From: a virus
Lineage: Duplodnaviria > Heunggongvirae > Uroviricota > Caudoviricetes
Strand: one strand, 5' to 3'
Length of the DNA stretch: 46,844 bases
Virus record (IMG/VR): IMGVR_UViG_2534681940_000028
Shown in pieces: positions 12,557 through 28,742 of this stretch (positions within the stretch are counted from its first letter, which is position 1; every line of letters begins with the position of its first letter). The position numbers and the translations under genes are program-made. The notes under the pieces were generated by a model. It was not told where the DNA came from, made no database searches, and worked only from the letters and a program-made list of their open reading frames with translations.

Positions 12557-12714
12557 AATCACTAATTGCTGATGTTATCGGGCTGGCTGGTTTTGGCCTG
12601 CTTACGTGCGGGTTTTACCTGCAGTTTGGTATGGCTCCGGCTCTGATGCTGTCCGGCGGTTTACTGCTGGTGGGCGCACTGGCTATGGCCAGAAGGGGGA
12701 CGCGTGCTGCTTGA
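12553..12714 (+). CDS. small membrane protein (53 aa)
   Basis: ATG 12553 overlaps terL stop (ATGA); hydrophobic [46 protein letters not shown]. Confidence 0.3.
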
Positions 12715-13930
12715 TGCTCTGTTCAGAAGTAAATCACTGGAGAATCCTTCCACCCCGATAACCGGGGATGCCGTTGATACTGATGGGCTGTTCCGGACAG
12801 ACGTTTATGTCAGTCCTGAAACTGCGATGAAACTGGCTGCGGTGTATTCCTGTATCTATGTCCTGTCTTCCAGCCTTGCCCAGATGCCGTTGCATGTTAT
12901 GCGCAGGCACAATGGGAAGGTTGAGCCCGCACGCGATCATCCGGCGTTTTATCTGGTTCATGATGAGCCCAATACCTGGCAAACCAGTTACAAATGGCGC
13001 GAACTGAAGCAACGTCACATCCTTGGCTGGGGGAATGGGTATACCTGGGTGAAACGTAATCGTCGCGGTGAAGTCATATCCCTGGATTGCTGTATGCCGT
13101 GGGAAACGACGCTGATGAATACTGGTGGCCGATATACCTACGGTTTGTACAACGAATATGGGGCGTTTGCGATCAGCCCCGACGATATGATCCACATCCG
13201 TGCGCTGGGTAATAATCAGAAGATGGGGCTGAGTCCGATTATGCAACATGCCGAAACAATAGGCATGGGGATGAGCGGTCAGAAATACACAGAAAGCTTC
13301 TTCAGCGGTAATGCCCGTCCGGCGGGGATAGTATCCGTTAAAAGCGGACTCAATAAGGACAGCTGGGGCTGGCTTAAAGATCAGTGGCAGAAGGCATCGC
13401 AGGCGTTACGCAGCCAGGAAAACAAAACCATGCTGCTGCCAGCCGATCTGGATTACAAGGCACTGACTGTGTCGCCAGTTGACGCTCAGATCATTGACAT
13501 GATGAAACTGAACCGTTCAATGATTGCCGGTATTTTCAATATTCCTGCGCACATGATTAATGACCTCGAAAAAGCCACCTTCTCCAATATTTCTGCGCAG
13601 GCGATTCAGTTTGTCCGCTACACGATGATGCCGTGGGTAACGAACTGGGAGCAGGAGCTTAACCGTCGCTTGTTTACCCGCGCTGAGTTAGCCGCCGGGT
13701 ATTACGTTAGGTTCAATCTGACGGGGCTTTTACGCGGAACTCCGCAGGAGCGCGCGCAATTCTATCACTTCGCTATTACCGATGGATGGATGAGCCGTAA
13801 TGAAGCCCGCGCATTCGAGGATATGAATCCGGTTGAAGGGCTGGATGAGATGCTGGTAAGCGTGAATGCTGCTAACCCGGCAGGAGATTTTAAGCCCCCA
13901 AAAAATGATGAGGGAAAAACCAATGAATGA
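12704..13930 (+). CDS. portal protein (HK97 family)
   Basis: 408 aa directly after terL; HK97-type portal-like sequence; GTG start assumed. Confidence 0.85.
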   Translation: MLLDALFRSKSLENPSTPITGDAVDTDGLFRTDVYVSPETAMKLAAVYSCIYVLSSSLAQMPLHVMRRHNGKVEPARDHPAFYLVHDEPNTWQTSYKWRELKQRHILGWGNGYTWVKRNRRGEVISLDCCMPWETTLMNTGGRYTYGLYNEYGAFAISPDDMIHIRALGNNQKMGLSPIMQHAETIGMGMSGQKYTESFFSGNARPAGIVSVKSGLNKDSWGWLKDQWQKASQALRSQENKTMLLPADLDYKALTVSPVDAQIIDMMKLNRSMIAGIFNIPAHMINDLEKATFSNISAQAIQFVRYTMMPWVTNWEQELNRRLFTRAELAAGYYVRFNLTGLLRGTPQERAQFYHFAITDGWMSRNEARAFEDMNPVEGLDEMLVSVNAANPAGDFKPPKNDEGKTNE

Positions 13931-14525
13931 CCGTGAAATCCGTTGTTACAGCGGTGAGGTGCGTGCTGAGCGGCATGACGATAACCCTGCGCACATTATC
14001 GGTTATGGATCGGTGTTTGACTGTCGTTCTGAGCTGATATTTGGTTCATTCCGCGAAATCATCCGGCCCGGCGCTTTTGACGATGTGCTTGGTGATGATG
14101 TACGCGCACTGTTTAACCACGATCCTAATTTTATTCTTGGGCGTAGTGCAGCAGGCACGCTGAATCTTTCAGTTGATGAGCGCGGATTGCGCTATGACAT
14201 CCAGGCTCCGGAGACACAGACCATTCGTGATCTGGTGCTGGCCCCGATGCAACGTGGAGATATTAACCAGTCATCTTTTGCTTTCCGTGTCGCCCGTGAC
14301 GGCGAGGAGTGGTATCAGGATGAGGACGGGGTTGTTATTCGCGAGATAACCCGCTTTTCCCGTCTGCTGGATGTCAGTCCTGTGACATATCCTGCCTATC
14401 AGGAGGCTGACTCGGCTGTTCGCTCCATGAAAGCATGGCAGGAGGCGCGCAACAGCGGCGCGCTACAGAAAGCCATTAATCAACGTATGGCGCGTGAACG
14501 CGTCCTGACCCTTCTTAACGCGTAA
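13923..14525 (+). CDS. prohead maturation protease (HK97 family)
   Basis: 200 aa from ATG 13923 (overlaps portal stop); position between portal and capsid. Confidence 0.8.
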   Translation: MNDREIRCYSGEVRAERHDDNPAHIIGYGSVFDCRSELIFGSFREIIRPGAFDDVLGDDVRALFNHDPNFILGRSAAGTLNLSVDERGLRYDIQAPETQTIRDLVLAPMQRGDINQSSFAFRVARDGEEWYQDEDGVVIREITRFSRLLDVSPVTYPAYQEADSAVRSMKAWQEARNSGALQKAINQRMARERVLTLLNA

Positions 14526-14535
14526 AGGAAACATC

Positions 14536-15765
14536 ATGAAACTGCATGAACTGAAACAGAAACGTAATACTATCGCAACTGACATGCGCGCCCTGAATGA
14601 AAAAATTGGTGATAACGCATGGACGGAAGAGCAGCGCACTGAGTGGAACAAAGCAAAATCCGAACTGGAAGCGCTTGATGAACGAATTGCACGCGAAGAA
14701 GAACTGCGTCGTCAGGATCAGGCGTACATTGAAAGCAATGAGGAAGAGCAGCGTCAGAATCTTGATCCGGAAAACAATCCACAACAGGATGAGAAACGAG
14801 CTCAGGTTTTTGATAAGTGGATGCGTCACGGTGCCAGTGAGCTGACATCAGAAGAACGAAAGGCGTTGCGTGAACTTCGTGCCCAGGGCGTAGCTCAGGA
14901 TGAAAAGGGCGGATATACCGTACCAGAAACATTCCTGGCGAAAGTTGTTGAGAAGATGAAATCCTACGGTGGCATCGCCAGTGTGGCGCAGATTCTTACC
15001 ACTTCTGACGGTCGCACTATGGAGTGGGCAACAGCTGATGGTACTTCCGAAGTTGGTGTTCTGCTGGGCGAAAATGAAGAAGCCGGTGAAGAAGACACCG
15101 ATTTCGGTATGGGAAGCCTTGGGGCGCTCAAAATGACATCGAAAATAATTCGTGTGTCTAATGAGTTGCTGCAGGACAGTGCGATCGATATGGAAGCTTA
15201 TCTTGCCCGTCGCATTGCTGAACGTATTGGTCGTGGTGAAGCCCGTTATCTGATTCAGGGAACTGGTGCTGGTACGCCTAAACAACCCAAAGGGCTGGTC
15301 GCATCTGTGACCGGCACAACACAGACTGCCGCGGCAAATACGGTGAAGTGGCAGGAAATTCTGGCTCTGAAACACAGCATTGATCCTGCATATCGTCGCG
15401 GACCGAAATTCCGCCTGGCGTTTAACGATAATACGCTGAAACTGATCAGTGAGATGGAAGACGGTCAGGGACGCCCTTTATGGTTGCCGGATATTGTTGG
15501 TGTGGCACCTGCTTCAGTGTTGAATGTACCGTATGTCATTGATCAGGAAATTGATGATATCGGGGCGGGTAAAAAATTCATGTTCTGTGGTGACTTTGAT
15601 CGCTTCATTATCCGTCGTGTGCGATACATGATTCTTAAACGTCTGGTTGAGCGTTACGCGGAATATGATCAGACCGGTTTTCTGGCCTTCCATCGTTTTG
15701 ACTGTATCCTGGAAGACACCTCTGCCATTAAAGCGCTGGTGGGGAAAGGTAGCGTTGGTGGTTGA
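14536..15765 (+). CDS. major capsid protein (HK97 fold) with N-terminal delta/scaffold domain
   Basis: 409 aa; N-terminal charged coiled-coil region then capsid domain; follows protease. Confidence 0.85.
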   Translation: MKLHELKQKRNTIATDMRALNEKIGDNAWTEEQRTEWNKAKSELEALDERIAREEELRRQDQAYIESNEEEQRQNLDPENNPQQDEKRAQVFDKWMRHGASELTSEERKALRELRAQGVAQDEKGGYTVPETFLAKVVEKMKSYGGIASVAQILTTSDGRTMEWATADGTSEVGVLLGENEEAGEEDTDFGMGSLGALKMTSKIIRVSNELLQDSAIDMEAYLARRIAERIGRGEARYLIQGTGAGTPKQPKGLVASVTGTTQTAAANTVKWQEILALKHSIDPAYRRGPKFRLAFNDNTLKLISEMEDGQGRPLWLPDIVGVAPASVLNVPYVIDQEIDDIGAGKKFMFCGDFDRFIIRRVRYMILKRLVERYAEYDQTGFLAFHRFDCILEDTSAIKALVGKGSVGG

Positions 15766-15788
15766 TTAGTCTTTTTACGTAATACAGC

Positions 15789-15833
15789 ACGCCGCGTAAT
15801 GCGGTTTTTTTGTGCCCGCGTTCTGGCGGGCAC
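15789..15833 (+). terminator. two hairpins downstream of capsid gene (terminator-like, then RBS-proximal stem)
   Basis: CCGC gtaat GCGG + T7 run (15792-15811), then perfect 8-bp stem GTGCCCGC/GCGGGCAC (15812-15833) abutting AGGAGG. Confidence 0.35.
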
Positions 15834-15843
15834 AGGAGGTTTT

Positions 15844-16167
15844 ATGCTGTTAAAAATGGAAGAGATTAAGCTTCAGCTCCGTCTGGATGATGATTTCTCT
15901 GATGAAGATGAGTTGCTTGAACTGCTTGGTAAGGCCGCTCAGAGTCGTACGGAAAACTTCCTTAACCGTAAGTTGTATGCAACCGCAGATGACAGGCCTG
16001 CGGATGATCCTGATGGGCTTGTGATATCTGATGATGTGAAGCTGGCACTTCTGCTACTTGTCAGCCATTTCTACGAAAACCGCTCAACGGTTACAGACGT
16101 TGAGAAAATGGAGTTGCCAATGAGTTTTAACTGGTTGGTTGCTCCTTATCGCCTTATACCACTATGA
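15844..16167 (+). CDS. head-tail connector protein (gp6-like)
   Basis: 107 aa from ATG 15844 with AGGAGG upstream; ORF-track start 15799 is upstream in-frame. Confidence 0.6.
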   Translation: MLLKMEEIKLQLRLDDDFSDEDELLELLGKAAQSRTENFLNRKLYATADDRPADDPDGLVISDDVKLALLLLVSHFYENRSTVTDVEKMELPMSFNWLVAPYRLIPL

Positions 16168-16574
16168 AAATTCGTCAGGCGCAGACCAGCGCAACCTACA
16201 TACTGCCGGACCCCGGCGAACTGAATAAACGCGTCCTGATCCGCCAGCGGGTGGATATGCCCGCGGATAACTTTGGCGTGGAGCCTCAATACCCGGTTGC
16301 GTTCCGGGCATGGGCGAAGGTTATCCAGACCAGTGCCACCACCTGGCAGGAAACCGCGCAGACCGGGGACGCCATCACCCATTACATCACCATTCGCTAC
16401 CGCCGCGGGATCACTGCTGATTATGAGGTGGTCTGTGATGACAGTGTGTACCGGGTGAAACGTCAGCGCGATCTGAACGGGGCGCGGCGCTTTCTGCTGC
16501 TGGAGTGTACGGAACTGGGCGAATTTACGCAGAGTCACGGAGGCAGCAATGGCGACTCCCTTTTTTCACGTTGA
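16164..16574 (+). CDS. head-tail adaptor / head closure protein
   Basis: 136 aa; ATGA overlap with upstream gene; neck-module position. Confidence 0.5.
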   Translation: MKIRQAQTSATYILPDPGELNKRVLIRQRVDMPADNFGVEPQYPVAFRAWAKVIQTSATTWQETAQTGDAITHYITIRYRRGITADYEVVCDDSVYRVKRQRDLNGARRFLLLECTELGEFTQSHGGSNGDSLFSR

Positions 16575-17055
16575 TGTTCAGCAGCCCGCCGAGATGCGCT
16601 TTAACCGCGCCCGTGTCCGGCGGGCGTTTGTCACGATTGGGCAGCGTCATATGCGTGATGCCCGTCGGCTGGTGATGCGCCGTGCGCGGTCGGCACCGGG
16701 TGAAAACCCCGGTTATCAGACCGGACGCCTGGCTCGTTCGATTGGTTACATGGTGCCGAGAGCCAGTAAAAAGCGAGCCGGTTTTATGACACGCATTGCC
16801 CCTAACCAGCGCAACGGGAAGGGGAACCGGATGATCTCTGGTGACTTCTATCCGGCGTTTCTGTTTTTTGGTGTCCGGGGAGGAGCAAAACGTCGTCGTA
16901 GTCATCATCGTGGTGCATCCGGTGGCAGCGGCTGGCGGCTGGCTCCACGTAATAACTTTATGGTGGAAACGCTTGAAAAGAACCGCAGCTGGACACGCTA
17001 TTTTCTGGCGCGAGAATTACGTAAATCACTGAAGCCTGAGCGACGACGCAGATGA
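16549..17055 (+). CDS. neck / virion morphogenesis protein (Mu gp36-like or HK97 gp10-like)
   Basis: 168 aa basic protein; position between head closure and tail genes. Confidence 0.45.
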   Translation: MATPFFHVDVQQPAEMRFNRARVRRAFVTIGQRHMRDARRLVMRRARSAPGENPGYQTGRLARSIGYMVPRASKKRAGFMTRIAPNQRNGKGNRMISGDFYPAFLFFGVRGGAKRRRSHHRGASGGSGWRLAPRNNFMVETLEKNRSWTRYFLARELRKSLKPERRRR

Positions 17056-17612
17056 AACTGACGCCTGTTATTGCTGCGCTGCGTGCCCGCTGCCCGTATT
17101 TTGAAAACCGGGTGGCAGGCGCGGCACAGTTCAAAAATCTGCCGGAGGTCGGAAAGCTGAGACTCCCGGCGGCGTATGTGGTACCGGGTGATGACTCTCC
17201 GGGAGAAAACAAAAGCCAGACCGACTACTGGCAGGAGCTGAAAGAGGGCTTCTCCGTGGTTGTCATACTGAGTAACGGGCGTGATGAGCTCGGTCAGTTT
17301 GCTTCGTATGATGTGGTGGACGATGTCCGGCAGATGCTCTTTAAGGCCTTGCTGGGCTGGAACCCGGAAGCGTGCGGTAACCCGATTACCTATGACGGCG
17401 GCACGCTGCTGGATCTGAATCGTCATGAGCTGATTTATCAGTTCGATTTTTCGGTCATCAGCGAGCTGACTGAAGACGATACCCGCCAGCAGGATGATCT
17501 GAACAGTCTGGATGAACTGCAAACGCTGGCGATTGATGTTGATTATCTCGAGCCCGGTAACGGGCCTGACGGCGATATCGAACATCACACCGAAATAACC
17601 CTTCCTTCCTGA
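17052..17612 (+). CDS. tail completion protein (Mu gp37-like), hypothetical
   Basis: 186 aa acidic protein; position upstream of sheath. Confidence 0.4.
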   Translation: MKLTPVIAALRARCPYFENRVAGAAQFKNLPEVGKLRLPAAYVVPGDDSPGENKSQTDYWQELKEGFSVVVILSNGRDELGQFASYDVVDDVRQMLFKALLGWNPEACGNPITYDGGTLLDLNRHELIYQFDFSVISELTEDDTRQQDDLNSLDELQTLAIDVDYLEPGNGPDGDIEHHTEITLPS

Positions 17613-17620
17613 GGATCCTC

Positions 17621-17791
17621 ATGTTTGTCAAACCTGTTAAAGGGCGGTCAGTGCCTGACCCTGCCCGCGGCGACCTTTTGCCCGCCGAAGGGCGAAATGT
17701 TGACGAGAACAACTACTGGCTGCGCCGTGAAGCAGCGGGTGATATCCGGCGCGTGAATAAAAAGGTGAACACCGATGACGATAAGCTTTAA
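17621..17791 (+). CDS. small phage protein (56 aa) preceding tail sheath
   Basis: ATG 17621, open to TAA 17789-17791; overlaps sheath start; below ORF-track cut-off. Confidence 0.35.
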   Translation: MFVKPVKGRSVPDPARGDLLPAEGRNVDENNYWLRREAAGDIRRVNKKVNTDDDKL

Positions 17792-19271
17792 CACCATTCC
17801 GTCGAATACGCTGGTTCCGTTGTTTTATGCGGAAATGGATAACCAGGCGGCGAATACTGCACAGGACAGCGGAGCATCGCTGCTGATTGGTCATGCCAAT
17901 AACGGTGCAGAGATTGTTGCCAACAGTCTGGTACTGATGTCGTCGGCAGACTATGCACGCCAGATTTGTGGTGCGGGAAGTCAGCTGGCGCGTATGGTCG
18001 AGGCTTATCGCCAGACTGACCCGTTTGGCGAGCTGTATGTGATTGCCGTTCCTGAATCCACAGGTGCGGCGGCAACAGTTACGCTGACGGTGACCGGGGC
18101 GGCAACCGAAACCGGCACGGTGAATGTGTATGTAGGACGTACCCGCGTGCAGGCACCGGTGACTAACGGCGATAACGTCACGATGATTGCCAGCAGTATC
18201 CAGGATGCCATCAATGCCGTTCCGACCCTGCCGTTTACGGCTTCATCTTTGGCAGGCGTGGTCACACTGACCGCGCGTCATAAGGGGCTTTGTGGGAATG
18301 AAATTCCTGTCAGCCTCAATTACTACGGCTTTGGTGGGGGCGAAGTGCTGCCAGCGGGCGTACAGATTGCCGTGGCGACGGGTACCGCCGGAACGGGTGC
18401 TCCGGTTCTCACCGGCGCGGTGGCTGCAATGGCGGATGAGCCGTTTGATTATATCGGCCTGCCGTTCAACGACACGGCCTCCGTTAACACGCTGGTGACC
18501 GAGATGAACGATACCAGCGGTCGCTGGAGCTATGCGCGTCAGCTGTATGGTCATGTGTATACGGCAAAGATCGGCACGCTGTCAGAACTGGTGACCGCAG
18601 GTGACCAGTTTAACCAGCAGCACATTACCCTGGCGGGGTACGAAAAAGAGACCCAGACGCCTGCCGACGAGCTGGCGGCAAGCCGTACCGCCCGCGCAGC
18701 GGTGTTTATCCGCAACGATCCGGCACGTCCCACGCAGACCGGTGAGCTGGTGGGTATGCTGCCTGCGCCGAAGGGGAAACGGTTCACGATGACCGAACAA
18801 CAGACCCTGCTGTCTCATGGCGTGGCAACGGCGTATGTCGAAAGCGGGGTACTACGCATTCAGCGTGATGTCACCACGTACAGGAAAAACGCTTACGGGG
18901 TTGCGGATAACAGTTACCTCGACAGTGAGACGCTGCATACCAGCGCGTATGTACTGCGCAAACTGAAATCCGTCATTACCAGTAAGTACGGGCGTCACAA
19001 GCTTGCCAGTGACGGTACCCGCTTTGGTCCCGGTCAGGCGATTGTCACCCCGGCGGTGATCAAAGGGGAACTGCTGGCAACCTACCGTCAGCTTGAGCGT
19101 GCGGGGATCGTGGAAAACTACGAACTGTTTAAGCAGTACCTGGTTGTGGAGCGTGATGCCAGCGATCCGAACCGCCTGAACACGCTGTTCCCGCCTGACT
19201 ATGTTAACCAGCTGCGTGTCTTTGCCGTGGTTAATCAGTTCCGTCTTCAGTATTCAGAGGAGTCTGCATAA
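17775..19271 (+). CDS. tail sheath protein (Mu gpL-like)
   Basis: 498 aa; followed by tube, chaperone and tape measure in canonical myovirus order. Confidence 0.75.
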   Translation: MTISFNTIPSNTLVPLFYAEMDNQAANTAQDSGASLLIGHANNGAEIVANSLVLMSSADYARQICGAGSQLARMVEAYRQTDPFGELYVIAVPESTGAAATVTLTVTGAATETGTVNVYVGRTRVQAPVTNGDNVTMIASSIQDAINAVPTLPFTASSLAGVVTLTARHKGLCGNEIPVSLNYYGFGGGEVLPAGVQIAVATGTAGTGAPVLTGAVAAMADEPFDYIGLPFNDTASVNTLVTEMNDTSGRWSYARQLYGHVYTAKIGTLSELVTAGDQFNQQHITLAGYEKETQTPADELAASRTARAAVFIRNDPARPTQTGELVGMLPAPKGKRFTMTEQQTLLSHGVATAYVESGVLRIQRDVTTYRKNAYGVADNSYLDSETLHTSAYVLRKLKSVITSKYGRHKLASDGTRFGPGQAIVTPAVIKGELLATYRQLERAGIVENYELFKQYLVVERDASDPNRLNTLFPPDYVNQLRVFAVVNQFRLQYSEESA

Positions 19272-19627
19272 TGGCCCGTATCGGGGGAACCTGTTATTTC
19301 AAAATTGACGGTCAGCAGCTATCGCTGACCGGCGGCATTGAGGTGCCCATGAACAAAACGGTTAACGATGACATCATCGGCCTGGACGGTTCAGTGGACC
19401 GCAAGGAAACTCACCGTGCGCCTTATGTCAAAGGGACCTTCAAGGTGCCGAAGAATTTTCCGGTAAGCAAAATCACCTCGTCTGATGAGATGACCATCAC
19501 TGCCGAGCTGGCGAACGGTCAGGTCTATGTACTGTCGTCTGCCTGGCTGCACGGCGAAGCGAACCATAATGCCGAAGAAGGCACGGTTGATCTTGAGTTC
19601 CACGGTGAAGAAGGGGATTACCAGTAA
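19271..19627 (+). CDS. tail tube protein (Mu gpM-like)
   Basis: 118 aa directly after sheath. Confidence 0.7.
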   Translation: MARIGGTCYFKIDGQQLSLTGGIEVPMNKTVNDDIIGLDGSVDRKETHRAPYVKGTFKVPKNFPVSKITSSDEMTITAELANGQVYVLSSAWLHGEANHNAEEGTVDLEFHGEEGDYQ

Positions 19628-19896
19628 TGAAAGAGCTTGAGTTAAAGAAACCGATTACTGCTCATGGCGAGACACTCTCCGTACTGGAGTTTGATGAACC
19701 CACCGGGAAGGATGTCCGCGAGCTGGGGTATCCCTACCAGATGAATCAGGATGAGTCAGTCAGACTTCTGGCGCATGTGGTGTCGAAATACATTGTGCGG
19801 CTGGCGAAAGTGCCGCAAAGCTCTGTCGACCAGATGTCTCCGGCAGACCTGAATGCAGCGGCGTGGCTTGTGGCTGGTTTTTTCCTCCAGGCCTGA
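19627..19896 (+). CDS. tail assembly chaperone (short form)
   Basis: 89 aa between tube and tape measure; ends just after slippery TTTTTTC. Confidence 0.6.
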   Translation: MKELELKKPITAHGETLSVLEFDEPTGKDVRELGYPYQMNQDESVRLLAHVVSKYIVRLAKVPQSSVDQMSPADLNAAAWLVAGFFLQA

Positions 19897-20051
19897 CGGC
19901 TGAATACCTCACTGATCGCTTCTTTGACTGCGCCAGCTACTGGCGCATTAATCCTTTCGAATTGCTGAATATGCCGATCAGTGAAATTCCCTTGCTGGTC
20001 AGTCAGGCAAACAGGATAGAGCAGGAGAAACGCACACATGGCGGAATTTGA
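19627..20051 (+). CDS. tail assembly chaperone, predicted -1 frameshift fusion product
   Basis: Slippery heptamer T TTT TTC at 19878-19884; -1 frame stays open to 20051, abutting tape-measure start. Confidence 0.45.
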
Positions 20052-21873
20052 GCTTAAGGCGTTGATCACCGGTGTCGACAGGCTTTCTCCCGCGCTGTCG
20101 AAAATGCAAAAGAAAATCCGGGGATTTAAACGCCAGGCGGAAGAAGCGTCACAGGGTGGGCTGGCGCTTGGTGGCGGACTGGCAGCGGGTCTGACGCTTT
20201 CCCTGAAATCTTATGCCGATCAGGAAAACGCCGCCACCGGGCTGAAAGTCGCCATGATGGATGCGAACGGCGAGGTTGGAAAGAGCTTTCAGGACATCAA
20301 TAAACTGGCTATTGGCCTGGGTAACCAGCTACCCGGTACAACGGCTGATTTCCAGAACATGATGCAGATGCTGGTGCGTCAGGGGATCCCGGCAGAAAAC
20401 ATTCTTGGCGGTGTGGGTAAAGCGACAGCTTATCTTGCGGTACAACTGAAAAAAACACCGGAAGCGGCTGCTGAGTTTGCTGCAAAGATGCAGGATGCTA
20501 CCGGAACGGCGTCAGAAGACATGATGGGGCTGTTCGACACTATCCAGAAGGCGTTTTATCTGGGTGTTGACGATACCAACATGTTGTCCTTCTTCACTAA
20601 AACCAGCTCTGTTCTGAAGATGGTGAACAAGGACGGTCTTCAGGCTGCACAGAGCCTTGCCCCCATCAGCGTCATGATGGATCAGATGGGGATGAACGGG
20701 GAGTCGGCAGGTAACGCCCTGCGAAAAGTTATCCAGTCCGGATTAAGCGTTAAGAAAATCAGGGACGTCAATAAAATCATGGCCCGCCAGAAACTCGGGG
20801 TACAGCTCGATTTTACTGACGGCAAAGGAAGTTTTGGCGGTCTTGATAACATGTTCAGGCAACTGGCAAAGCTGCGAAAACTGACCGACGTTAAGCGAAC
20901 AGGTGTACTTAAGGCAATATTTGGTGATGATGCCGAAACCCTTCAGGTGGTCAATGCACTAATCGATAAAGGAAAGGATGGCTACGATCAGATCCAGCAG
21001 AAGATGAATAAACAGGCCAGCCTGAATAAACGTGTTCAGGCCCAGCTTGGTACGCTGTCCAACCTGTGGGAGGCAATGACGGGGACCGCAACTAACGGCC
21101 TTGCGGCTATTGGCGGCGCATTTTCTGGTGACGCCAAAAATATCACGCAATGGCTGGGGGAGTTAGGGGAAAAATTCACGAAGTTTGCGGATGAAAATCC
21201 CCGGGTTATTCGCGGCGTCGTCGGGCTTGCTGCCGGTCTTGCGATTCTGAAACTGGGATTGATGGGCGTTGGCGGTGCCATCAGTATTGTCAGCAGGATC
21301 ATGTCGATGACGCCGATTGGAATGATTGCGACGGCGATAGCCCTGGCTGCGGGATTAATTATCACTAACTGGGATGTTGTCGGACCTTATTTCAAGAAGC
21401 TCTGGGAAACCATTGGTCCTTATTTTGAGGCTGGCTGGGAACTTCTGAAGAAGGTTTTTGCCTGGTCGCCGCTGGGGATGGTAATCAATAACTGGGGACC
21501 GGTTGTTAAGTGGTTTCAGGATATGTGGGACAAACTGAAGCCAATTATTGAGTGGTTTACCGACAGTTCCGGTGACACGGTCGATGCCATTAACTCTGCG
21601 CAGTGGGGCGCGGGTGCTTATGATGCTTATGGGACGGGAATACCGGCACGGGGATACACACCTTATCAGGCGGTAGATCCGGCTCAGTCAAACAACGCCT
21701 CCGGTGCCACAGGCCCGAATCCCTTCATGATTAACAAAGCTTCTGCGCCAAAAGTTGATGGTGAGATCAAGGTCTCTTTTGTGAATTCGCCTCCGGGTAT
21801 GCGGGTTATGGAAACGCGATCCAGCGGTTTTGATGTCAGCCATGATGTTGGCTATACGCGCTTTGGCAGGTAA
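20038..21873 (+). CDS. tail tape measure protein
   Basis: 611 aa, Ala/Gly-rich with hydrophobic central segment; follows chaperone. Confidence 0.8.
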   Translation: MAEFELKALITGVDRLSPALSKMQKKIRGFKRQAEEASQGGLALGGGLAAGLTLSLKSYADQENAATGLKVAMMDANGEVGKSFQDINKLAIGLGNQLPGTTADFQNMMQMLVRQGIPAENILGGVGKATAYLAVQLKKTPEAAAEFAAKMQDATGTASEDMMGLFDTIQKAFYLGVDDTNMLSFFTKTSSVLKMVNKDGLQAAQSLAPISVMMDQMGMNGESAGNALRKVIQSGLSVKKIRDVNKIMARQKLGVQLDFTDGKGSFGGLDNMFRQLAKLRKLTDVKRTGVLKAIFGDDAETLQVVNALIDKGKDGYDQIQQKMNKQASLNKRVQAQLGTLSNLWEAMTGTATNGLAAIGGAFSGDAKNITQWLGELGEKFTKFADENPRVIRGVVGLAAGLAILKLGLMGVGGAISIVSRIMSMTPIGMIATAIALAAGLIITNWDVVGPYFKKLWETIGPYFEAGWELLKKVFAWSPLGMVINNWGPVVKWFQDMWDKLKPIIEWFTDSSGDTVDAINSAQWGAGAYDAYGTGIPARGYTPYQAVDPAQSNNASGATGPNPFMINKASAPKVDGEIKVSFVNSPPGMRVMETRSSGFDVSHDVGYTRFGR

Positions 21874-21933
21874 TGAAAAATTAATCTGTTAATGAGTCCC
21901 ACTCCGGTGGGATTTTTTATGTACGGAGTTTAT

Positions 21934-23262
21934 ATGACGTGGAAAGACAGACTTCAGGACGCGTCATTTCGCGGTGTGCCGTTTAAGGTTGAAGAAGAAA
22001 GTGCGGGAACCGGTCGTCGTGTGGAAACGCACGAATACCCGAACCGCGACAAACCCTATACCGAAGACCTGGGGAAAATCACTTTCCGCCCGTCCATCAC
22101 AGCTTATGTGGTGGGAGATGACTGCTTTGACCAGCGCGATCGCCTGATTGACGCGCTGAATAAACCCGGTCCCGGCACGCTTGTCCATCCGACTTACGGT
22201 GAGCTGAAAGTCTGTGTTGACGGGGAAGTTCGGGTCAGCACATCGAAGAGTGAAGGGCGTATTGTCCGCTTTGACCTGAAGTTTGTCGAAGCGGGAGAAC
22301 TCTCTTACCCCACTTCAGGTGCGGCGACGGCGCAGACGCTGATGTCATCCTGTTCTGCACTGGATGACTGCATCAGTGACAGCTTCAGTGGTTTCAGTAT
22401 CGATGGCGTGGCAGATTTTGTGCAGAACGACGTCGTCGGTAATGCCAGCACAATGCTTGGGTATGTTTCTGATGCGATGAAAGTGGTGGATTCTGCCGTA
22501 TCGGATGCCGCCAGGCTGTTGCAGGGGGATATCTCGGTACTTCTGCCGCCACCATCGTCAGGCAAAAATTTCGTTGAGCAGGTGCAGAAAATGTGGCGTA
22601 CCGGGAAACGCCTTTATGGTAACGCCAGCGACCTGGTCACCATGATCAAAACGCTTTCCGGTGTCAGCCTCGGCAGCGATCTGCAACCGCGCGGCGTCTG
22701 GAAAACGGACAGTAAAACTACCGCCACGGCGACGCAGCAGCGTAACGTGGTTGCCAGCACCCTTCGTACGACCGCAATCAGCGAAGCGGCGTATGCCGTC
22801 ACACGATTGCCTGCGCCCACAACTTCCGCGGTGATGCAGAATGCCACAGTAGGGCAGTCAACAACACCCGCGCAGAGCACCGGCTGGCCTTCTGTCACGC
22901 ATCCGGCACTGAACAATGCACCGGCGGTGAAAAACACGGTTGACCTGCCAACGTGGGAAGAACTGACCGACATTCGCGACACACTGAATACGGCAATTGA
23001 TAAGGAGTTGTCCCGTACAACCAGTGATGCGCTGTTTCTGGCGCTGCGCCGGGTGAAAGCAGATCTGAATGCGGATATCAACACGCGCCTTGAACAGTCT
23101 GCACGGATCATTCAGCGCACGCCGGATGAGGTTTTACCCGCGCTGGTGCTGGCGGCGACCTGGTTTGATAACGCGGCGCGTGACGCGGACATTATCCGGC
23201 GTAATGCCATTACGCATCCCGGCTTTGTGCCGGTGATCCCTCTGAAGGTGCCAGTGCAATGA
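21934..23262 (+). CDS. DNA circulation protein (Mu gpN / gp43-like)
   Basis: 442 aa from ATG 21934 (MTWKDRLQDASFRGVPFKVEEE); position after tape measure. Confidence 0.65.
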   Translation: MTWKDRLQDASFRGVPFKVEEESAGTGRRVETHEYPNRDKPYTEDLGKITFRPSITAYVVGDDCFDQRDRLIDALNKPGPGTLVHPTYGELKVCVDGEVRVSTSKSEGRIVRFDLKFVEAGELSYPTSGAATAQTLMSSCSALDDCISDSFSGFSIDGVADFVQNDVVGNASTMLGYVSDAMKVVDSAVSDAARLLQGDISVLLPPPSSGKNFVEQVQKMWRTGKRLYGNASDLVTMIKTLSGVSLGSDLQPRGVWKTDSKTTATATQQRNVVASTLRTTAISEAAYAVTRLPAPTTSAVMQNATVGQSTTPAQSTGWPSVTHPALNNAPAVKNTVDLPTWEELTDIRDTLNTAIDKELSRTTSDALFLALRRVKADLNADINTRLEQSARIIQRTPDEVLPALVLAATWFDNAARDADIIRRNAITHPGFVPVIPLKVPVQ

Positions 23263-24338
23263 ACGACAATGTCACGCTACGGGTAAATGGCCGGGAGTGG
23301 AATGGCTGGACATCGGTGCGCATCGGTGCCGGTATTGAACGGCTGGCGCGGGATTTCAGTGTGGAGATCACTCGCCAGTGGCCGGGAGATGAGGGTATCA
23401 CCACGCTTCAGCCGCGCATTAAAAACGGTTCAAAAGTGGAAGTGCTGATTGGTGATGAGCTGGTGATCACCGGCTGGGTGGAGGCGACTCCCGTTCGTTA
23501 CGATGCCCGTTCGGTCAGCACCGGTATTGCCGGACGTAGTCTGACGGCTGACCTGATTGACTGTGCAGCCGAACCGACACAGTTTAACGGACGCTCGCTG
23601 GTGCAGATTGCGCAGGCGCTTGCTGCGCCTTTCGGCATTGAGGTGGTGAACAGCGGTGCGCCGTCGGGTGTTATTCCTGATGTTCAGCCTGATCACGGTG
23701 AAACGGTGATTGAGGTTATCAACAAAATACTCGGTCAGCAGCAGGCGCTGGCTTACGACGATCCGCACGGCAGGCTGGTGATTGGCGGTATTGGCTCAAC
23801 GCGGGCACATACCGCGCTGGTACTTGGGGAAAACATCCTTTCCTGTGATACGGAGAAGAGTATCCGGGAGCGGTTTTCTGTTTACCAGGTGGCGGGGCAG
23901 CGTGCCGGAAACGACGATGATTTCGGTGAGGTCACCACCACCGCGCTGCGGGCCCGCACAGAGGACGCATTTATTGCCCGTTACCGTCCGATGTATATCA
24001 GGCAGACAGGGCAGGCCACGGGGGCAGGCTGTATTGCGCGTGCTGACTTTGAAGCCCGACAACGGGCGGCGCGGACGGATGAAACCACCTATGTGGTGCA
24101 GGGCTGGCGACAGGGTAACGGTACGCTGTGGCAGCCCAACCAGCGGGTGATTGTCTTCGATCCAGTCTGTGGTTTCGACAATACCGAACTGCTTGTCTCG
24201 GAAGTCACGTTTACTCAGGACCAGAACGGCACCCTGACGGAAATCCGTGTCGGCCCGCCTGATGCTTATCTGCCTGAACCCGAAGCCCCCGGCGCGCGGA
24301 AAAAGAAAAAAGCCAGAGTACAGGAGGACCCGTTCTGA
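23259..24338 (+). CDS. baseplate hub protein (Mu gpP / gp44-like)
   Basis: 359 aa; overlapping start/stop with neighbours; baseplate module order. Confidence 0.6.
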   Translation: MNDNVTLRVNGREWNGWTSVRIGAGIERLARDFSVEITRQWPGDEGITTLQPRIKNGSKVEVLIGDELVITGWVEATPVRYDARSVSTGIAGRSLTADLIDCAAEPTQFNGRSLVQIAQALAAPFGIEVVNSGAPSGVIPDVQPDHGETVIEVINKILGQQQALAYDDPHGRLVIGGIGSTRAHTALVLGENILSCDTEKSIRERFSVYQVAGQRAGNDDDFGEVTTTALRARTEDAFIARYRPMYIRQTGQATGAGCIARADFEARQRAARTDETTYVVQGWRQGNGTLWQPNQRVIVFDPVCGFDNTELLVSEVTFTQDQNGTLTEIRVGPPDAYLPEPEAPGARKKKKARVQEDPF

Positions 24339-24886
24339 TGAGGACGATTGAAGCCATGCAGCGACAACTTCTCGGCCTGATTGCGCGGGCAGTGGTGAAA
24401 AGCATCAGTGCCGCCACGAAATGTCAGACCGTGGATGTGTCCCTGATTGCCGGTGAACCCAAAGCCGGGGTTGAACATCTTGAACCCTACGGTTTTACCG
24501 CAAGGGCAAACAGCGGCGCGGAAGCGGTGGTGTTGTTTCCGGATGGCGACCGTTCTCATGCGGTGGTTGTTACGGTGTCGGACCGGCGCTACCGCCTGAA
24601 AGGGTTGCAGACGGGTGAGGTGGCTGTCTATGACGATCAGGGGCAGTCTGTGACGCTGACCCGGGAGGGGATCGTGGTGGACGGTGCAGGTAAAACGATC
24701 ACGTTTCGCAATTCACCTAAAGCACGTTTTGAAATGGACCTGGAAGTGACAGGACAGGTGAAAGACCTGTGCGACTCCAGCGGCACTACCATGTCAGCGA
24801 TGCGGCTTGCCTATAACGGGCATCGTCACAGAGAGAACGGTCAGGGCAGTAACACCGACAAACCGGATAAAGCGATGGAGGCATGA
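24338..24886 (+). CDS. baseplate spike / assembly protein V (Mu gp45-like)
   Basis: 182 aa; TGATG overlap. Confidence 0.65.
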   Translation: MRTIEAMQRQLLGLIARAVVKSISAATKCQTVDVSLIAGEPKAGVEHLEPYGFTARANSGAEAVVLFPDGDRSHAVVVTVSDRRYRLKGLQTGEVAVYDDQGQSVTLTREGIVVDGAGKTITFRNSPKARFEMDLEVTGQVKDLCDSSGTTMSAMRLAYNGHRHRENGQGSNTDKPDKAMEA

Positions 24887-25311
24887 TGGAACTGTGGCTG
24901 ACGGTGAACGGTAAACGCACCTGCGCCAGCGCACCGCTGGATCCGCTGACCCGCGCCGTGGTGATTTCCCTGTTTACCTGGCGGCGGGCGGAGCCTGATG
25001 ACAACGCCGACGTCCCGATGGGATGGTGGGGGGATACCTGGCCTGCGGTACAGAATGACCGTTACGGCTCACGACTGTGGCTGCTTCAGCGCAGCAAACT
25101 GACCAATCAGCTGGTGCAGACAGTAAGGGGGTATATCCGCGAATGCCTGCAATGGATGATTGATGACGGCGTGGTGTCCCGTATTGATCTGGATATCCGC
25201 CGCACCGGGATTAATGAGCTGGGTAACAGTATCACCCTCTGGCGTCGTGACGGACCGGTAATGATTTCTTTTGATGATCTGTGGAGTGCGATAACGCATG
25301 GCGGACAGTGA
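24883..25311 (+). CDS. baseplate protein (Mu gp46 / GPW-like)
   Basis: 142 aa; position in baseplate module. Confidence 0.6.
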   Translation: MMELWLTVNGKRTCASAPLDPLTRAVVISLFTWRRAEPDDNADVPMGWWGDTWPAVQNDRYGSRLWLLQRSKLTNQLVQTVRGYIRECLQWMIDDGVVSRIDLDIRRTGINELGNSITLWRRDGPVMISFDDLWSAITHGGQ

Positions 25312-26356
25312 ATTTCAGCGCCCGACGCTGGCAGAAAATATCAGTATGCTCCGTAACGATTTATTCGCCAGGCTGGACGTCAGCGACACGCTCCGGCGCA
25401 TGGATGAAGACGTGCGGGCAAAGGTGTATGCGGCGGCGCTGCATACGGTTTACGGTTACATCGATTATCTGGCAATGAACATGCTGCCTGACCTGTGCGA
25501 TGAGTCCTGGCTGGCGCGACATGCTGCGATGAAACGGTGTCCGCGCAAGGGGGCCACGGCTGCCAGCGGGTATATGCGCTGGGAAGGTGTCAGCGATGGC
25601 CTGAAGGTGACCGCCGGGAGCGTGATTCAGCGCGATGACCTGGTTCAGTACACGGCAACTGCTGATGCAACCAGCTCCGGTGGTGTCCTGCGCGTGCCGA
25701 TCGCCTGCTCAAGTGCAGGCGCGGTCGGTAACGCTGACGACGGTACGGCATTAATCCTGGTCACGCCGGTGAATGGTCTGCCGTCTTCCGGTGTTGCAGA
25801 TACCCTGACTGGCGGATTCGATACTGAAGATCTGGAAACGTGGCGCGCCCGCGTCATTGAGCGGTATTACTGGACGCCTCAGGGCGGGGCTGACGGGGAC
25901 TATGTTGTCTGGGCTAAAGAAGTGCCCGGCATTACCCGCGCATGGACATACCGTCACTGGATGGGAACGGGAACTGTCGGTGTGATGATTGCCAGCAGTG
26001 ACCTGATTAATCCCATTCCGGAAGAATCAACGGAAACGGCGGCAAGACAACACATTGAGCCACTGGCCCCGGTGGCAGGCTCTGATTTGTATGTATTCAG
26101 GCCGGTGGCGCATAAAGTGGATTTTCATATCCGCGTGACGCCGGACACACCGGAAATACGGGCTGCCATTACCGCGGAGTTGCGTTCGTTCCTGCTGCGT
26201 GATGGTTATCCGCAGGGAGAACTCAAGGTATCGCGTATCAGTGAGGCGATTTCCGGTGCGAACGGGGAATACAGCCATCAGTTGCTTGCACCGGTGGACA
26301 ATATCTCCATTGCGAAAAACGAACTGGCGGTACTGGGGACGATTTCATGGACGTGA
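25298..26356 (+). CDS. baseplate J-like protein (Mu gp47-like)
   Basis: 352 aa; position in baseplate module. Confidence 0.75.
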
Positions 26357-26931
26357 CAAACGATGATTACATCCGCCTGTTATCGGCACTGTTGCCGCCC
26401 GGTCCGGCGTGGTCAGCCAGCGATCCGGCGATTGCCGGTGCGGCACCGTCATTAACCCGTGTTCATCAGCGTGCGGATGCCCTGATGCGGGAGCTGGATC
26501 CTCGCACCACCACTGAACTGATAAACCGCTGGGAGCGTCTGTGCGGTCTGCCGGATGAATGTATTCCGGCGGGAACGCAGACCCTTCGCCAGCGTCAGCA
26601 ACGGCTGGATGCGAAGGTTAACCTGGCGGGCGGCATCAACGAGGATTTTTATCTTGCACAGCTTGCTGCCCTGGGCAGACCAGATGCCACCATCACGCGA
26701 TACGACAAAAGCACTTTCACCTGCTCATCGGCCTGTACTGACGCGGTGAATGCGCCGGAATGGCGGTATTACTGGCAGGTCAACATGCCAGCCACCACCA
26801 ACTCCACCTGGATGACATGTGGCGATCCCTGTGATTCCGCACTGCGTATCTGGGGTGACACCGTTGTCGAGTGTGTGCTTAACAAACTCTGCCCGTCGCA
26901 AACCTACGTAATTTTTAAATATCCGGAGTAA
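26347..26931 (+). CDS. tail protein, DUF2313 / YmfQ-like (Mu gp48-like)
   Basis: 194 aa; immediately upstream of tail fibre gene. Confidence 0.6.
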
Positions 26932-26934
26932 TCC

Positions 26935-27705
26935 ATGCATCGTATAGACACGAAAACCGCGCAGAAGGATAAGTTCGGCGCGGGTAAGAACGGTTTTACC
27001 CGTGGTAACCCCCAGACCGGCACGCCTGCCACCGATCTGGATGATGACTACTTTGACATGTTGCAGGAGGAACTTTGCAGCGTGGTGGAGGCATCCGGTG
27101 CCAGCCTGGAGAAGGGGCGGCACGACCAGTTACTTACCGCACTTCGCGCGCTGCTGTTAAGCCGCAAGAATCCGTTTGGCGATATCAAATCGGATGGCAC
27201 TGTGCAAACGGCTCTCGAAAACCTTGGTTTGGGAGAAGGCTCTGCATTACCTGTTGGTGTGCCTGTTCCATGGCCTTCAGCCACACCGCCAACAGGCTGG
27301 CTGAAATGCAACGGTGCGGCTTTTTCTGCTGAAGAATACCCGGAACTGGCAAAGGCTTATCCGACAAATAAATTGCCTGATTTACGTGGTGAGTTTATTC
27401 GTGGCTGGGATGACGGGCGCGGTATTGATGCAGGACGTGTTTTATTGAGCATTCAGACAGGGATGCTGGAAAAACACCGCCATATTGTTGTTGCCAATGA
27501 TGGTTACGACACAAAAGATGAATGGGAACTGGCTACGATTTTCAAAAAGACATACACACAAGGACGGGGACTTGATGCCACAAATACAGGAGGGAGTCTG
27601 ATCCCATCACCGACACTTCATTCACGAGGGAGTATCGGTAATACTGGCGGGAGTGAAACCCGTCCACGAAATATTGCATTTAACTATATCGTGAGGGCTG
27701 CATAA
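26935..27705 (+). CDS. tail fibre protein (constant N-terminus + currently expressed variable C-terminus)
   Basis: 256 aa; crossover site lies inside the gene at 27213-27239; Gly-rich fibre-like C-terminus. Confidence 0.7.
27213..27239. repeat. invertase crossover site (left; gix/pix-like)
   Basis: TCGAAAACCTTGGTTTGGGAGAAGG; core TTGGTTTGGGAGAAG is repeated inverted at 29103-29117. Confidence 0.55.
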
Positions 27706-28307
27706 TGGATAACGCCGTATTAAATAGCGAGCTTATTGCCACGAAGGCGGGGAATATTACCGTCTATAACTATGATGGTAAAACTCGGGAATATATTTCT
27801 ACTTCAAATGAATATCTTGCCATTGGTGTCGGTATCCCTGCATATTCCTGTCTGGATGAACCTGGTATACATAAGGCGGGTTATGCTATCTGCCGTTCGA
27901 TGGATTTAAACTCATGGGAATATGTGCCAGACCATCGCGGTGAAATCGTCTATAACACCGAAACGGGAGACGCCAAAGAAATCACAGCTCCGGGTGATTA
28001 TCCTGAAAATACAACCACTATCGCCCCGTTAACGCCATTCGATAAATGGGATGGTGAAAAATGGGTGACAGATACTGAGGCACAACACGGTGCCGCAGTA
28101 GAAGCGGCAGAAGCACAGCGCCAGTCACTGATTGATGCAGCAATGGCTTCCATCAGTCTGATTCAACTGAAATTGCAGGCCGGACGTAAACCGACGCAGG
28201 CAGAAACAACCAGACTTAACGCTGTGCTGGATTACATTGACGCGGTGACGGCAACAGATACCAGCACCGCGCCGGATGTCATCTGGCCTGAACTGCCGGA
28301 GGCGTAG
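27705..28307 (+). CDS. tail fibre assembly protein (current orientation)
   Basis: 200 aa; TAATG overlap with fibre gene. Confidence 0.7.
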   Translation: MDNAVLNSELIATKAGNITVYNYDGKTREYISTSNEYLAIGVGIPAYSCLDEPGIHKAGYAICRSMDLNSWEYVPDHRGEIVYNTETGDAKEITAPGDYPENTTTIAPLTPFDKWDGEKWVTDTEAQHGAAVEAAEAQRQSLIDAAMASISLIQLKLQAGRKPTQAETTRLNAVLDYIDAVTATDTSTAPDVIWPELPEA

Positions 28308-28731
28308 GCCATTCAATATCTGGCGCACTGGAGGTATCAACCAGCTCCAGTGCATCCAGATAATCCAGCCACAAATTATATTGCGCCAGTTCCTCACCTT
28401 TCAGACGACCAATAGCGGCTTTACCGGGCCATTGTTTACTGTTCATGTATTCGTTGGCCTGGTTAATTAGTAGCTGTCTTTCTGATTCAGTAATTTCAAT
28501 AAGTTCTTCATGCGTGGGTGGAGGAATATCTGCCCACGCAGGCAGCCCATCATCTCCGGCAATACGGATTTTTCCTTGTGGCGGTTCAGCCATAAACTCA
28601 CTGATAATATTTTGATTTACTTCCTTAGCGTCTGATAAATCCCATCCCTCTGATTTATATTTATCAATCATATCCACAGGGAAAAAAGCATTATGCCTTG
28701 CGCTATAAACATATTCATTCATATAAATCAC
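28279..28731 (-). CDS. tail fibre assembly protein (alternative orientation)
   Basis: 150 aa on minus strand inside the invertible segment; C-terminus parallels the + strand tfa. Confidence 0.65.
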   Translation of the reverse strand: MIYMNEYVYSARHNAFFPVDMIDKYKSEGWDLSDAKEVNQNIISEFMAEPPQGKIRIAGDDGLPAWADIPPPTHEELIEITESERQLLINQANEYMNSKQWPGKAAIGRLKGEELAQYNLWLDYLDALELVDTSSAPDIEWPTPPAVQAR

Positions 28732-28742
28732 CCTGAATAAAA

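What the first reader, a model, noticed from the sequence alone, without database searches (positions are those of the whole stretch)
19878..20051. Programmed -1 ribosomal frameshift in the tail assembly chaperone gene
A canonical slippery heptamer T TTT TTC lies 4 codons before the chaperone stop. The -1 frame remains open for about 55 further codons and ends at the tape-measure start, the conserved G/GT-type arrangement of tailed phages.
Basis: partly seen in the sequence, partly recalled or inferred. Interest (0 to 1): 0.45.

Follow-up and report, generated by a model that had tools for sequence, protein, structure and literature searches.

The report
Tail chaperone -1 frameshift, SfV-like prophage

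Summary
An in-phase T_TTT_TTC heptamer lies at 19878-19884, three sense codons before the stop of an 89-aa PF10109 tail assembly chaperone gene (19627-19896). That gene sits between the tail tube and tape-measure genes. The -1 frame then runs 55 codons to a stop at 20049-20051, 14 nt inside the tape-measure gene (ATG 20038).

- NNT TTT TTY is invariant in 32 distinct sequence contexts, from Enterobacterales to Burkholderiales, Methylococcales and P2. The residue before Phe-Phe changes (G/R/N/S/V) and neighbouring synonymous sites vary freely.
- Substitutions switch to third-position bias in the -1 frame exactly at the heptamer.
- The 50-59-aa extension is conserved as protein, whereas the 0-frame tail is not.
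- Half of the phage relatives have no start codon for the -1 ORF.
- A profile of the fusion aligns across the junction with P2 E+E' (E 1.5e-5).

No conserved stimulatory RNA structure or SD was found, which a genome paper citing Xu 2004 also reports for P2. The fusion is annotated in none of the records inspected (SfV, SfI, SfII, one PGAP E. coli genome). This is a new member of a well-known kind and of low interest. Expression itself was not tested.

The parts
19627..19896 (+). Tail assembly chaperone gene, 0-frame product of 89 aa (the 'E/G-like' short form). Its ATG overlaps the tube gene stop (TAATG).
   Evidence: The ORF is. Pfam PF10109 Phage_TAC_7 matches at E 1.9e-16. PGAP names it 'phage tail assembly protein'.
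19878..19884 (+). Slippery heptamer T_TTT_TTC, in phase (GGT TTT TTC).
   Evidence: Read directly. NNT TTT TTY is invariant in 32 distinct contexts. GGT TTT TTC is present in 77 of 80 near-identical IMG/VR loci.
19884..20051 (+). The -1 frame extension of 55 codons plus the stop (the 'E-prime/T-like' part). The predicted fusion is join(19627..19884, 19884..20051), 141 aa, with junction ...LVAGFF|PPGLTAEY...
   Evidence: Third-position substitution bias lies in this frame. The extension matches phrog_32181 at E 4.7e-40. The hhalign match to P2 E+E' spans the junction.
20038..21873 (+). Tape measure protein gene. Its start lies 14 nt inside the -1 extension.
   Evidence: PF10145 matches at E 1.3e-26.
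19271..19627 (+). Tail tube gene immediately upstream.
   Evidence: PF10618 Tail_tube matches at E 3.3e-33.
17775..19271 (+). Contractile tail sheath gene.
   Evidence: PF04984, PF17482 and PF17481 match.
19924..19951 (+). Local RNA hairpin with an 8-bp core GCGCCAG.../...CUGGCGC at 19929-19947. It is listed only to record that it is probably NOT a frameshift stimulator.
   Evidence: Fold of the 80-nt downstream segment containing this hairpin: z = -2.3. The hairpin starts 39-44 nt after the heptamer, whereas stimulators normally sit 5-9 nt away (own knowledge). It is kept mainly by invariance in the close clade and is absent in the SfIV/phiP27/ST64B clade.

Best explanation
This is a programmed -1 ribosomal frameshift of the tailed-phage tail-assembly-chaperone type. 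Most ribosomes translating the chaperone mRNA stop at 19894-19896 and make the 89-aa protein. A minority slip back one base when the P- and A-site tRNA-Phe sit on UUU UUC and re-pair on UUU UUU. Those ribosomes continue in the -1 frame for 55 codons and make a 141-aa fusion that shares the first 86 residues.

By analogy with lambda G/GT and P2 E/E+E', the common N-terminal part coats the tape-measure protein. The frameshift-only C-terminal domain recruits the tube protein. The fixed low ratio of long to short form is needed for tail assembly, and neither form ends up in the virion.

Shown here: the anatomy, the conservation, the frame switch of selective constraint, and homology to P2 E+E'. 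Inferred: that the fusion is made, its ratio, and its binding partners.
For: - Anatomy: the geometry is exact, and the gene is PF10109, lying between tube and tape measure.
- Phage relatives: seven (SfV, EPP-1, AH07, SfIV, phiP27, ST64B, YeP1) carry T_TTT_TTC/T at the homologous codons. Each has a -1 extension of 52-53 aa that ends a few nt inside the tape-measure gene. Their 0-frame tails vary from 3 to 21 codons and are unrelated.
- Genome loci: 32 of 32 loci in which an in-phase T6-7 run was found, from different species, show the same arrangement. Extensions are 50-59 aa and usually overlap the tape-measure start by 8 nt.
- Site conservation: across 32 distinct contexts, the codon before the run is GGT, CGT, AAT, AGT or GTT. 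That is five amino acids, always ending in T. The first Phe codon is always TTT, while adjacent Ala/Val codons vary freely at synonymous sites.
- Frame switch: substitutions by codon position for window vs EPP-1 are 18/9/49 in frame 0 upstream of the heptamer and 9/6/28 in frame -1 downstream. SfIV vs phiP27 downstream gives 6/3/25.
- No independent start: four of eight phages have no ATG/GTG/TTG in the -1 frame from its opening to 60 nt past the heptamer.
- Gene callers: only about 7 stand-alone ORF clusters exist among 1.84 billion representatives. Four of them (P0122, P0126, P0128, P0129) start upstream of the run and read it as 'FF'.
- P2 comparison: the P2 record annotates E (91 aa) and E+E' (142 aa, join, 'site of -1 translational frameshift', essential tail protein), ending 8 nt into gene T. 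P2 has GGT TTT TTG at the aligned G-F position.
- Profile match: the hhalign profile of 18 fusions against P2 E+E' gives E 1.5e-5 and probability 80%, over 119 columns spanning both halves.
- Motif: U_UUU_UUC and U_UUU_UUU are measured -1 shift motifs in E. coli (0.12% and 0.33% unstimulated, 7.6% and 10% with the IS3 pseudoknot). P2's U_UUU_UUG gives 0.118% unstimulated (PMC4066793 supplement).
Against: - There are no expression data of any kind for this family.
- No stimulator is conserved, and the bare motif gave only about 0.1% in a reporter context. The real efficiency is therefore unknown.
- Pfam PF06528 (P2 GpE') does not hit the extension, so homology of the C-terminal part to E' rests on the hhalign result alone.
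- Three of 80 near-identical IMG/VR loci have G at the X position (GGG TTT TT[CT]). The X position is therefore not absolutely fixed; those copies may be defective, or A-site-only slippage may suffice.
- No deposited record inspected annotates the fusion.
Confidence: 0.88

Rival explanations
1. The same 141-aa fusion is made by transcriptional slippage. RNA polymerase would add one extra U on the T6 run, putting the extension in frame on a subset of mRNAs.
For: The site is a homopolymer (T6 here, T7 in many relatives). Sharma et al. note that UUUUUUU is under-represented in all three frames in E. coli, possibly because of transcriptional slippage (PMC4066793).
Against: Runs of 6-7 are shorter than those known to give efficient RNAP slippage (usually 8-9 or more; own knowledge). 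The run is strictly in X_XXY_YYZ phase in 31 of 32 contexts, with T kept at the wobble position of five different preceding codons. That is the signature of tandem tRNA re-pairing. The one exception is the T8 run of L126, which still contains the heptamer. The homologous P2 site TTTTTTG has only a T6 run and is annotated as a translational frameshift.
Confidence: 0.07
2. The -1 ORF is an independent small gene (62 aa from GTG 19863), translated from its own start as one record annotates it. No frameshift would occur.
For: A GTG lies 21 nt upstream of the heptamer end in the -1 frame. ON470584 annotates a separate 'hypothetical protein' there. A few stand-alone ORF calls exist in public data.
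Against: No SD precedes the GTG; the upstream sequence is CCTGAATGCAGCGGC. SfIV, phiP27, ST64B and YeP1 have no start codon at all in that frame, and AH07 has only a TTG 24 nt downstream. Yet the extension is conserved as protein in all of them.
Confidence: 0.03
3. Coincidence: the 141-nt gap between the chaperone and tape-measure genes is non-coding, and the T-run merely encodes Phe-Phe.
For: An open -1 frame across the gap arises in 9% of shuffles. T6 runs are common in the window: 33 on the + strand.
Against: The -1 translation is conserved at the amino-acid level down to about 30% identity. Substitutions are third-position biased in that frame. NNT TTT TTY is invariant. The fusion is homologous to P2 E+E' across the junction.
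Confidence: 0.02

Closest known systems
Phage P2 genes E and E+E' (-1 frameshift at T_TTT_TTG; Christie et al. 2002 as cited in PMC3091744; annotated in NC_001895)
   Same: - Both are myovirus genes lying between the tube (P2: FII) and tape-measure (P2: T) genes.
- The N-terminal part is PF10109 in both.
- Product sizes are nearly identical: 89/141 aa here, 91/142 aa in P2.
- The heptamer sits on the aligned Gly-Phe codons (GGT TTT TTN).
- The extension ends inside the tape-measure start (8 nt in P2 and in SfV, 14 nt here).
- No stimulatory RNA structure is found.
- Supporting results; PMC3091744.
   Different: - The last base is C/T instead of G, so the A-site tRNA is Phe rather than Leu and re-pairs fully.
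- The C-terminal extension is not recognised by Pfam PF06528 and falls in a PHROG of unknown function.
- The rest of the tail module is Mu-like, not P2-like.
Phage lambda G / GT (G_GGA_AAG; Levin 1993, Xu 2004/2013/2014 as summarised in PMC5009743)
   Same: The logic is the same. [quoted passage not shown] A low-level -1 shift fixes the ratio of short to long product. No stimulator is needed, and the products are absent from virions.
   Different: Lambda is a siphovirus. There is no detectable sequence similarity, the heptamer is different, and the lambda T part is larger.
Phage Mu gp41 (-2 frameshift; Xu 2004 as cited in PMC2628397 and PMC5009743)
   Same: Both belong to Pfam family PF10109 and sit in a Mu-type tail gene order: sheath, tube, chaperone, tape measure, DNA-circularisation protein, gpP hub.
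   Different: Mu shifts by -2 on a G-run. Here the +1/-2 frame is closed after 10 codons, and only the -1 frame is open. The profile match to a hand-built Mu -2 fusion is not significant (probability 5.7%).
dnaX / IS3-family -1 frameshift sites
   Same: All use tandem-slippage X_XXY_YYZ heptamers read by E. coli ribosomes.
   Different: Those sites depend on an upstream SD and/or a downstream hairpin or pseudoknot at 5-9 nt. None is conserved here.

Membership tests
Conserved tail-assembly-chaperone frameshift of tailed phages (Xu, Hendrix & Duda 2004 type) | The gene pair lies between the major tail (tube) gene and the tape-measure gene. | tested here: met
   Tube is at 19271-19627, the chaperone at 19627-19896 and the tape measure at 20038-21873.
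Conserved tail-assembly-chaperone frameshift of tailed phages (Xu, Hendrix & Duda 2004 type) | A second ORF overlaps the 3' end of the first in another frame, lacks its own conserved start, and ends at the tape-measure gene. | tested here: met
   The -1 ORF is open to 20051. Four of eight relatives have no start codon in that frame. The extension ends -1 to +14 nt from the tape-measure start in 31 loci.
Conserved tail-assembly-chaperone frameshift of tailed phages (Xu, Hendrix & Duda 2004 type) | An in-phase slippery sequence in the overlap is conserved among relatives beyond what coding requires. | tested here: met
   NNT TTT TTY appears in 32 of 32 distinct contexts, with five different preceding amino acids.
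Conserved tail-assembly-chaperone frameshift of tailed phages (Xu, Hendrix & Duda 2004 type) | Both products are made at a fixed ratio, both are required for tail assembly, and both are absent from virions. | not testable with these tools
   This needs expression, genetics or mass spectrometry.
P2 E / E+E' family | An N-terminal Phage_TAC_7 (PF10109) domain. | tested here: met
   E 1.9e-16, above the gathering score.
P2 E / E+E' family | A C-terminal GpE' domain (PF06528) encoded in the -1 frame. | tested here: inconclusive
   PF06528 hits P2 E' (2.1e-22) but not the SfV-type or phiP27-type extension. However, hhalign of the fusion profile against P2 E+E' aligns through the extension (E 1.5e-5, probability 80%).
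P2 E / E+E' family | A T_TTT_TTG heptamer on the Gly-Phe codons near the end of E. | tested here: met
   The site is at the homologous position, but the last base is C (or T in other clades) instead of G.
Mu gp41-type -2 frameshift | The extension is encoded in the +1/-2 frame. | tested here: not met
   The +1 frame is open for only 10 codons across the gap.
Stimulated -1 PRF (dnaX / IS3 type) | A conserved upstream SD-like element or a downstream hairpin/pseudoknot 5-9 nt from the heptamer. | tested here: not met
   RNAalifold finds no conserved structure. The only solid hairpin lies 39-44 nt away. There is no SD in the 14 nt upstream. No Rfam family matches.

The most novel reading that the evidence does not exclude
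No SD or RNA structure is conserved, and bare U_UUU_UUC shifted only about 0.1% in an E. coli reporter. The family may therefore depend on an undescribed stimulator. Candidates are the nascent peptide encoded just upstream ([WM]-x-[VI]-x-G-F-F) or the immediate 3' context.

A second possibility concerns the SfV-type -1 extension. Pfam's GpE' model does not recognise it and PHROGs lists it as 'unknown function'. It may be a distinct tube-recruiting domain specific to Mu-type tail tubes.
Probability: 0.12. Interest if true: 0.4.

Novelty: new member of a known kind. Interest (0 to 1): 0.2.

Why it matters
The main value is for annotation. The 141-aa frameshift product is missing from every record inspected: RefSeq SfV, SfI and SfII and one PGAP-annotated E. 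coli O157:H7 genome. The identical or near-identical locus occurs in 918 of 5,426 complete E. coli genomes. Only one of those was checked in detail, but the 15 top rows list no feature between the assembly-protein and tape-measure genes. An essential tail-assembly protein is therefore probably missing from all of them.

The locus also shows that a Mu-type tail module can use the P2-type -1 T-run site rather than Mu's -2 site. In addition, the family offers a clean natural series (T_TTT_TTC, T_TTT_TTT, T_TTT_TTG) for studying stimulator-free frameshifting. None of this changes current understanding.

Tried and rejected
- Downstream stimulatory RNA. The local fold shows an 8-bp hairpin at 19929-19947 (the 80-nt segment containing it folds at z = -2.3). 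It lies 39-44 nt from the heptamer and is absent from the other clade. Alignment folds of 7, 14 and 10 relatives found nothing conserved near the site. Rfam found nothing either.
- Natural in-frame fusions as proof. The full-length hits P0001-P0006 turned out to be singleton, indel-ridden assemblies and are artefacts.
[quoted passage not shown] It concerns sb21/sb22, not the chaperone sb15, so it is irrelevant here.
- Structure prediction of the fusion. As a single sequence it gave pLDDT 46 and is unusable, so no fold search was run.
- Solved-structure search with the profile. It returned only chance hits.
- Mu -2 fusion comparison. The match was not significant.
- IMG/VR scan. It returned only near-identical copies, which helped only for checking T-run stability.
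- Multi-repeat hits P0123-P0125 in the representative search. These are unrelated tandem-repeat proteins.
- Literature. Xu et al. 2004 and Christie et al. 2002 are not held in the library. I could not check whether SfV is already listed there. Full-text searches found no paper describing this site.

Full report
**What is at the coordinates.**
- The + strand around 19870 reads GCT GGT TTT TTC CTC CAG GCC TGA in the frame of an 89-aa ORF (19627-19896).
- T_TTT_TTC therefore occupies 19878-19884 in the X_XXY_YYZ phase needed for tandem tRNA slippage.
- The stop is the fourth codon after the heptamer.
- Re-reading base 19884 opens CCT CCA GGC ... for 55 codons, to a TGA at 20049-20051.
- The next gene starts at ATG 20038.

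**What the genes are.**
- Pfam assigns the 89-aa ORF to PF10109, 'Phage tail assembly chaperone proteins, E, or 41 or 14' (E 1.9e-16).
- The upstream genes encode the tail sheath and tail tube.
- The downstream genes encode a tape-measure protein, a Mu-type DNA-circularisation protein and a Mu gpP-type baseplate hub.

**Where the locus occurs and how it is annotated.**
- The stretch is 98.9% identical to Shigella phage SfV and 98.3% identical to SfI and SfII.
- The best matches, all E. coli O157:H7-type strains, are 100% identical. The locus is present in 918 of 5,426 complete E. coli genomes.
- The long product is not annotated in any inspected record.
- RefSeq and GenBank SfV leave the 141-nt gap empty, and so does PGAP.
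- One phage record calls the -1 ORF a separate hypothetical protein.
- A tblastn search with the extension found no joined CDS under any of the 10 phage matches.

**Chance.**
- In this window's long ORFs, in-phase X_XXY_YYZ heptamers occur about 53 times per 13,426 codons. Of these, 23 contain only A/T.
- Dinucleotide shuffles keep the -1 frame open across the gap 9% of the time.
- Finding both together at the end of this particular gene has a probability of the order of 1e-3.
- That figure is suggestive, not decisive. The comparative data settle the question.

**Comparative evidence: phages and genome loci.**
- Seven phages were examined: SfV, EPP-1, AH07, SfIV, phiP27, ST64B and YeP1. Their fusion proteins are 29-76% identical to the window's fusion (SfV nearly identical).
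- All have T_TTT_TTC or T_TTT_TTT at the homologous codons.
- All have a -1 extension of 52-53 aa that ends a few nt inside the tape-measure gene.
- Their 0-frame continuations differ in length (3 to 21 codons) and in sequence.
- A scan of one genome per species returned 38 loci.
- In all 32 loci where an in-phase T6-7 run was found, the arrangement is the same. These include Derxia (Burkholderiales) and a Methylococcales MAG.
- In those loci the extension is 50-59 aa and the overlap with the tape-measure start is usually 8 nt.
- The endosymbiont copies L124, L127 and L128 carry upstream indels and look like pseudogenes.

**Comparative evidence: the site itself.**
- In 32 distinct nucleotide contexts, the three codons are NNT TTT TTY (TTG in P2).
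- The preceding codon is GGT, CGT, AAT, AGT or GTT, so the amino acid changes but the third-position T does not.
- The first Phe codon is TTT in 32 of 32 contexts.
- The Ala and Val codons just upstream use all synonymous alternatives.
- This is selection on the nucleotides of the heptamer, not on the protein.

**Frame switch of constraint.**
- Window vs EPP-1, upstream of the heptamer: substitutions by codon position are 18/9/49 in frame 0.
- Window vs EPP-1, downstream of the heptamer: 9/6/28 in frame -1.
- SfIV vs phiP27, downstream: 6/3/25. The other pairs agree.
- The extension is conserved as protein (invariant A103, P110, A128, R130; motif A-x-[YF]-W-[RK]-[IL]-N-P).

**Independent initiation.**
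- SfIV, phiP27, ST64B and YeP1 have no ATG, GTG or TTG in the -1 frame from where it opens to 60 nt beyond the heptamer.
- The window's GTG at 19863 has no SD.
- A search of 1.84 billion representative proteins found only about seven short stand-alone calls. Four of them (P0122, P0126, P0128, P0129) begin upstream of the run and read it as 'FF'.
- Independent initiation of the -1 ORF is therefore not a viable explanation.

**Relation to known systems: P2.**
- The P2 record annotates E (91 aa) and E+E' (142 aa). E+E' is a joined CDS with 'site of -1 translational frameshift' and is called an essential tail protein. It ends 8 nt into gene T.
- P2 reads GTC GGT TTT TTG TCG, and the G-F codons align with those of the window.
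- A profile of 18 fusions aligns with P2 E+E' over 119 columns spanning both halves (E 1.5e-5, probability 80%).
- Pfam's GpE' model PF06528 does not detect the SfV-type extension. That extension matches only phrog_32181, 'unknown function'.

**Relation to known systems: Mu and lambda.**
- Mu belongs to the same Pfam family and has the same tail gene order, but it is reported to use a -2 shift (PMC2628397; PMC5009743).
- Here the +1/-2 frame is closed. A hand-built Mu -2 fusion gives no significant profile match.
- The lambda G/GT model supplies the functional reading. G and the G part of GT bind the tape measure, the T part recruits the major tail protein, the ratio is critical, and neither protein is in virions (PMC5009743).

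**Mechanism.**
- U_UUU_UUC and U_UUU_UUU are among the heptamers measured as -1 shift-prone in E. coli.

| Heptamer | No stimulator | IS3 pseudoknot |
|---|---|---|
| U_UUU_UUC | 0.12% | 7.6% |
| U_UUU_UUU | 0.33% | 10.2% |
| U_UUU_UUG (P2) | 0.118% | 0.765% |

- These values come from the PMC4066793 supplement.
- I found no stimulator. There is no SD-like element in the 14 nt upstream.
- There is no conserved structure in alignments of 7, 14 and 10 relatives.
- There is no Rfam match.
- The one solid hairpin (19929-19947) lies 39-44 nt away and is clade-specific.
- A genome paper citing Xu 2004 reports that P2 also lacks a downstream structure (PMC3091744).
- The efficiency in the native context is therefore unknown.
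- Transcriptional slippage on the T-run cannot be excluded by sequence alone. The strict phase conservation and the short run argue for the ribosomal mechanism.

**Caveats.**
- Three of 80 near-identical IMG/VR copies have GGG instead of GGT before the run.
- Nothing here demonstrates that the protein is made.
- I could not read Xu et al. 2004 or Christie et al. 2002 to see whether SfV-type phages were already listed.

**Verdict.** The finding is real and correctly interpreted. It is an unannotated member of the well-known tail-chaperone frameshift class, closest to P2 E/E+E'. Its value is for annotation more than for new biology.

Noticed in passing
window 33051-46844: A second mobile element follows the SfV-like prophage. 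It has a P4-type integrase (33051-34283), Psu (38793-39545, - strand) and a P4 alpha-like primase-helicase (41790-44180). It is therefore a P4-like satellite adjacent to the helper-type prophage.
   Followed up: partly
window 34287-37557: Between the satellite's integrase and psu lies an AT-rich Lamassu-type defence locus that looks degraded. It has an LmuA fragment (34287-34706, matching only positions 10-140 of a 336-position model) and an apparently intact LmuC (35275-35748). LmuB is split over at least three ORFs in different frames (35714-35947, 36402-36791, 36991-37557).
   Followed up: partly
window 36730-36737: An in-phase A_AAA_AAG heptamer (A7 run) sits 17 codons before the end of one LmuB fragment, with an 84-codon open -1 frame. 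It is most likely a frameshift mutation or homopolymer indel in a pseudogene, not recoding.
   Followed up: no
window 10823-29000: The prophage is a mosaic. It has HK97-type head genes (TerL, portal, PF05065 capsid) joined to a Mu-type contractile tail and baseplate, yet the chaperone frameshift is of the P2 (-1, T-run) type and not the Mu (-2) type.
   Followed up: partly
window 20045-20051 vs L001 2268-2275: In this window the -1 extension is two codons longer (…HGGI, 14-nt overlap with the tape-measure gene) than in SfV and most relatives (…HG, 8-nt overlap). A substitution just after the tape-measure ATG removes the usual stop.
   Followed up: no
L124, L127, L128 (Pantoea bathycoeliae and Arsenophonus endosymbiont loci): The endosymbiont copies of the chaperone gene carry extra indels upstream of the T-run that permute the frames. 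They are apparently decaying prophage genes.
   Followed up: no
window 29684-30622 (-): A 312-aa ORF with a LEM-3-like GIY-YIG nuclease domain lies just after the tail-fibre region of the prophage.
   Followed up: no
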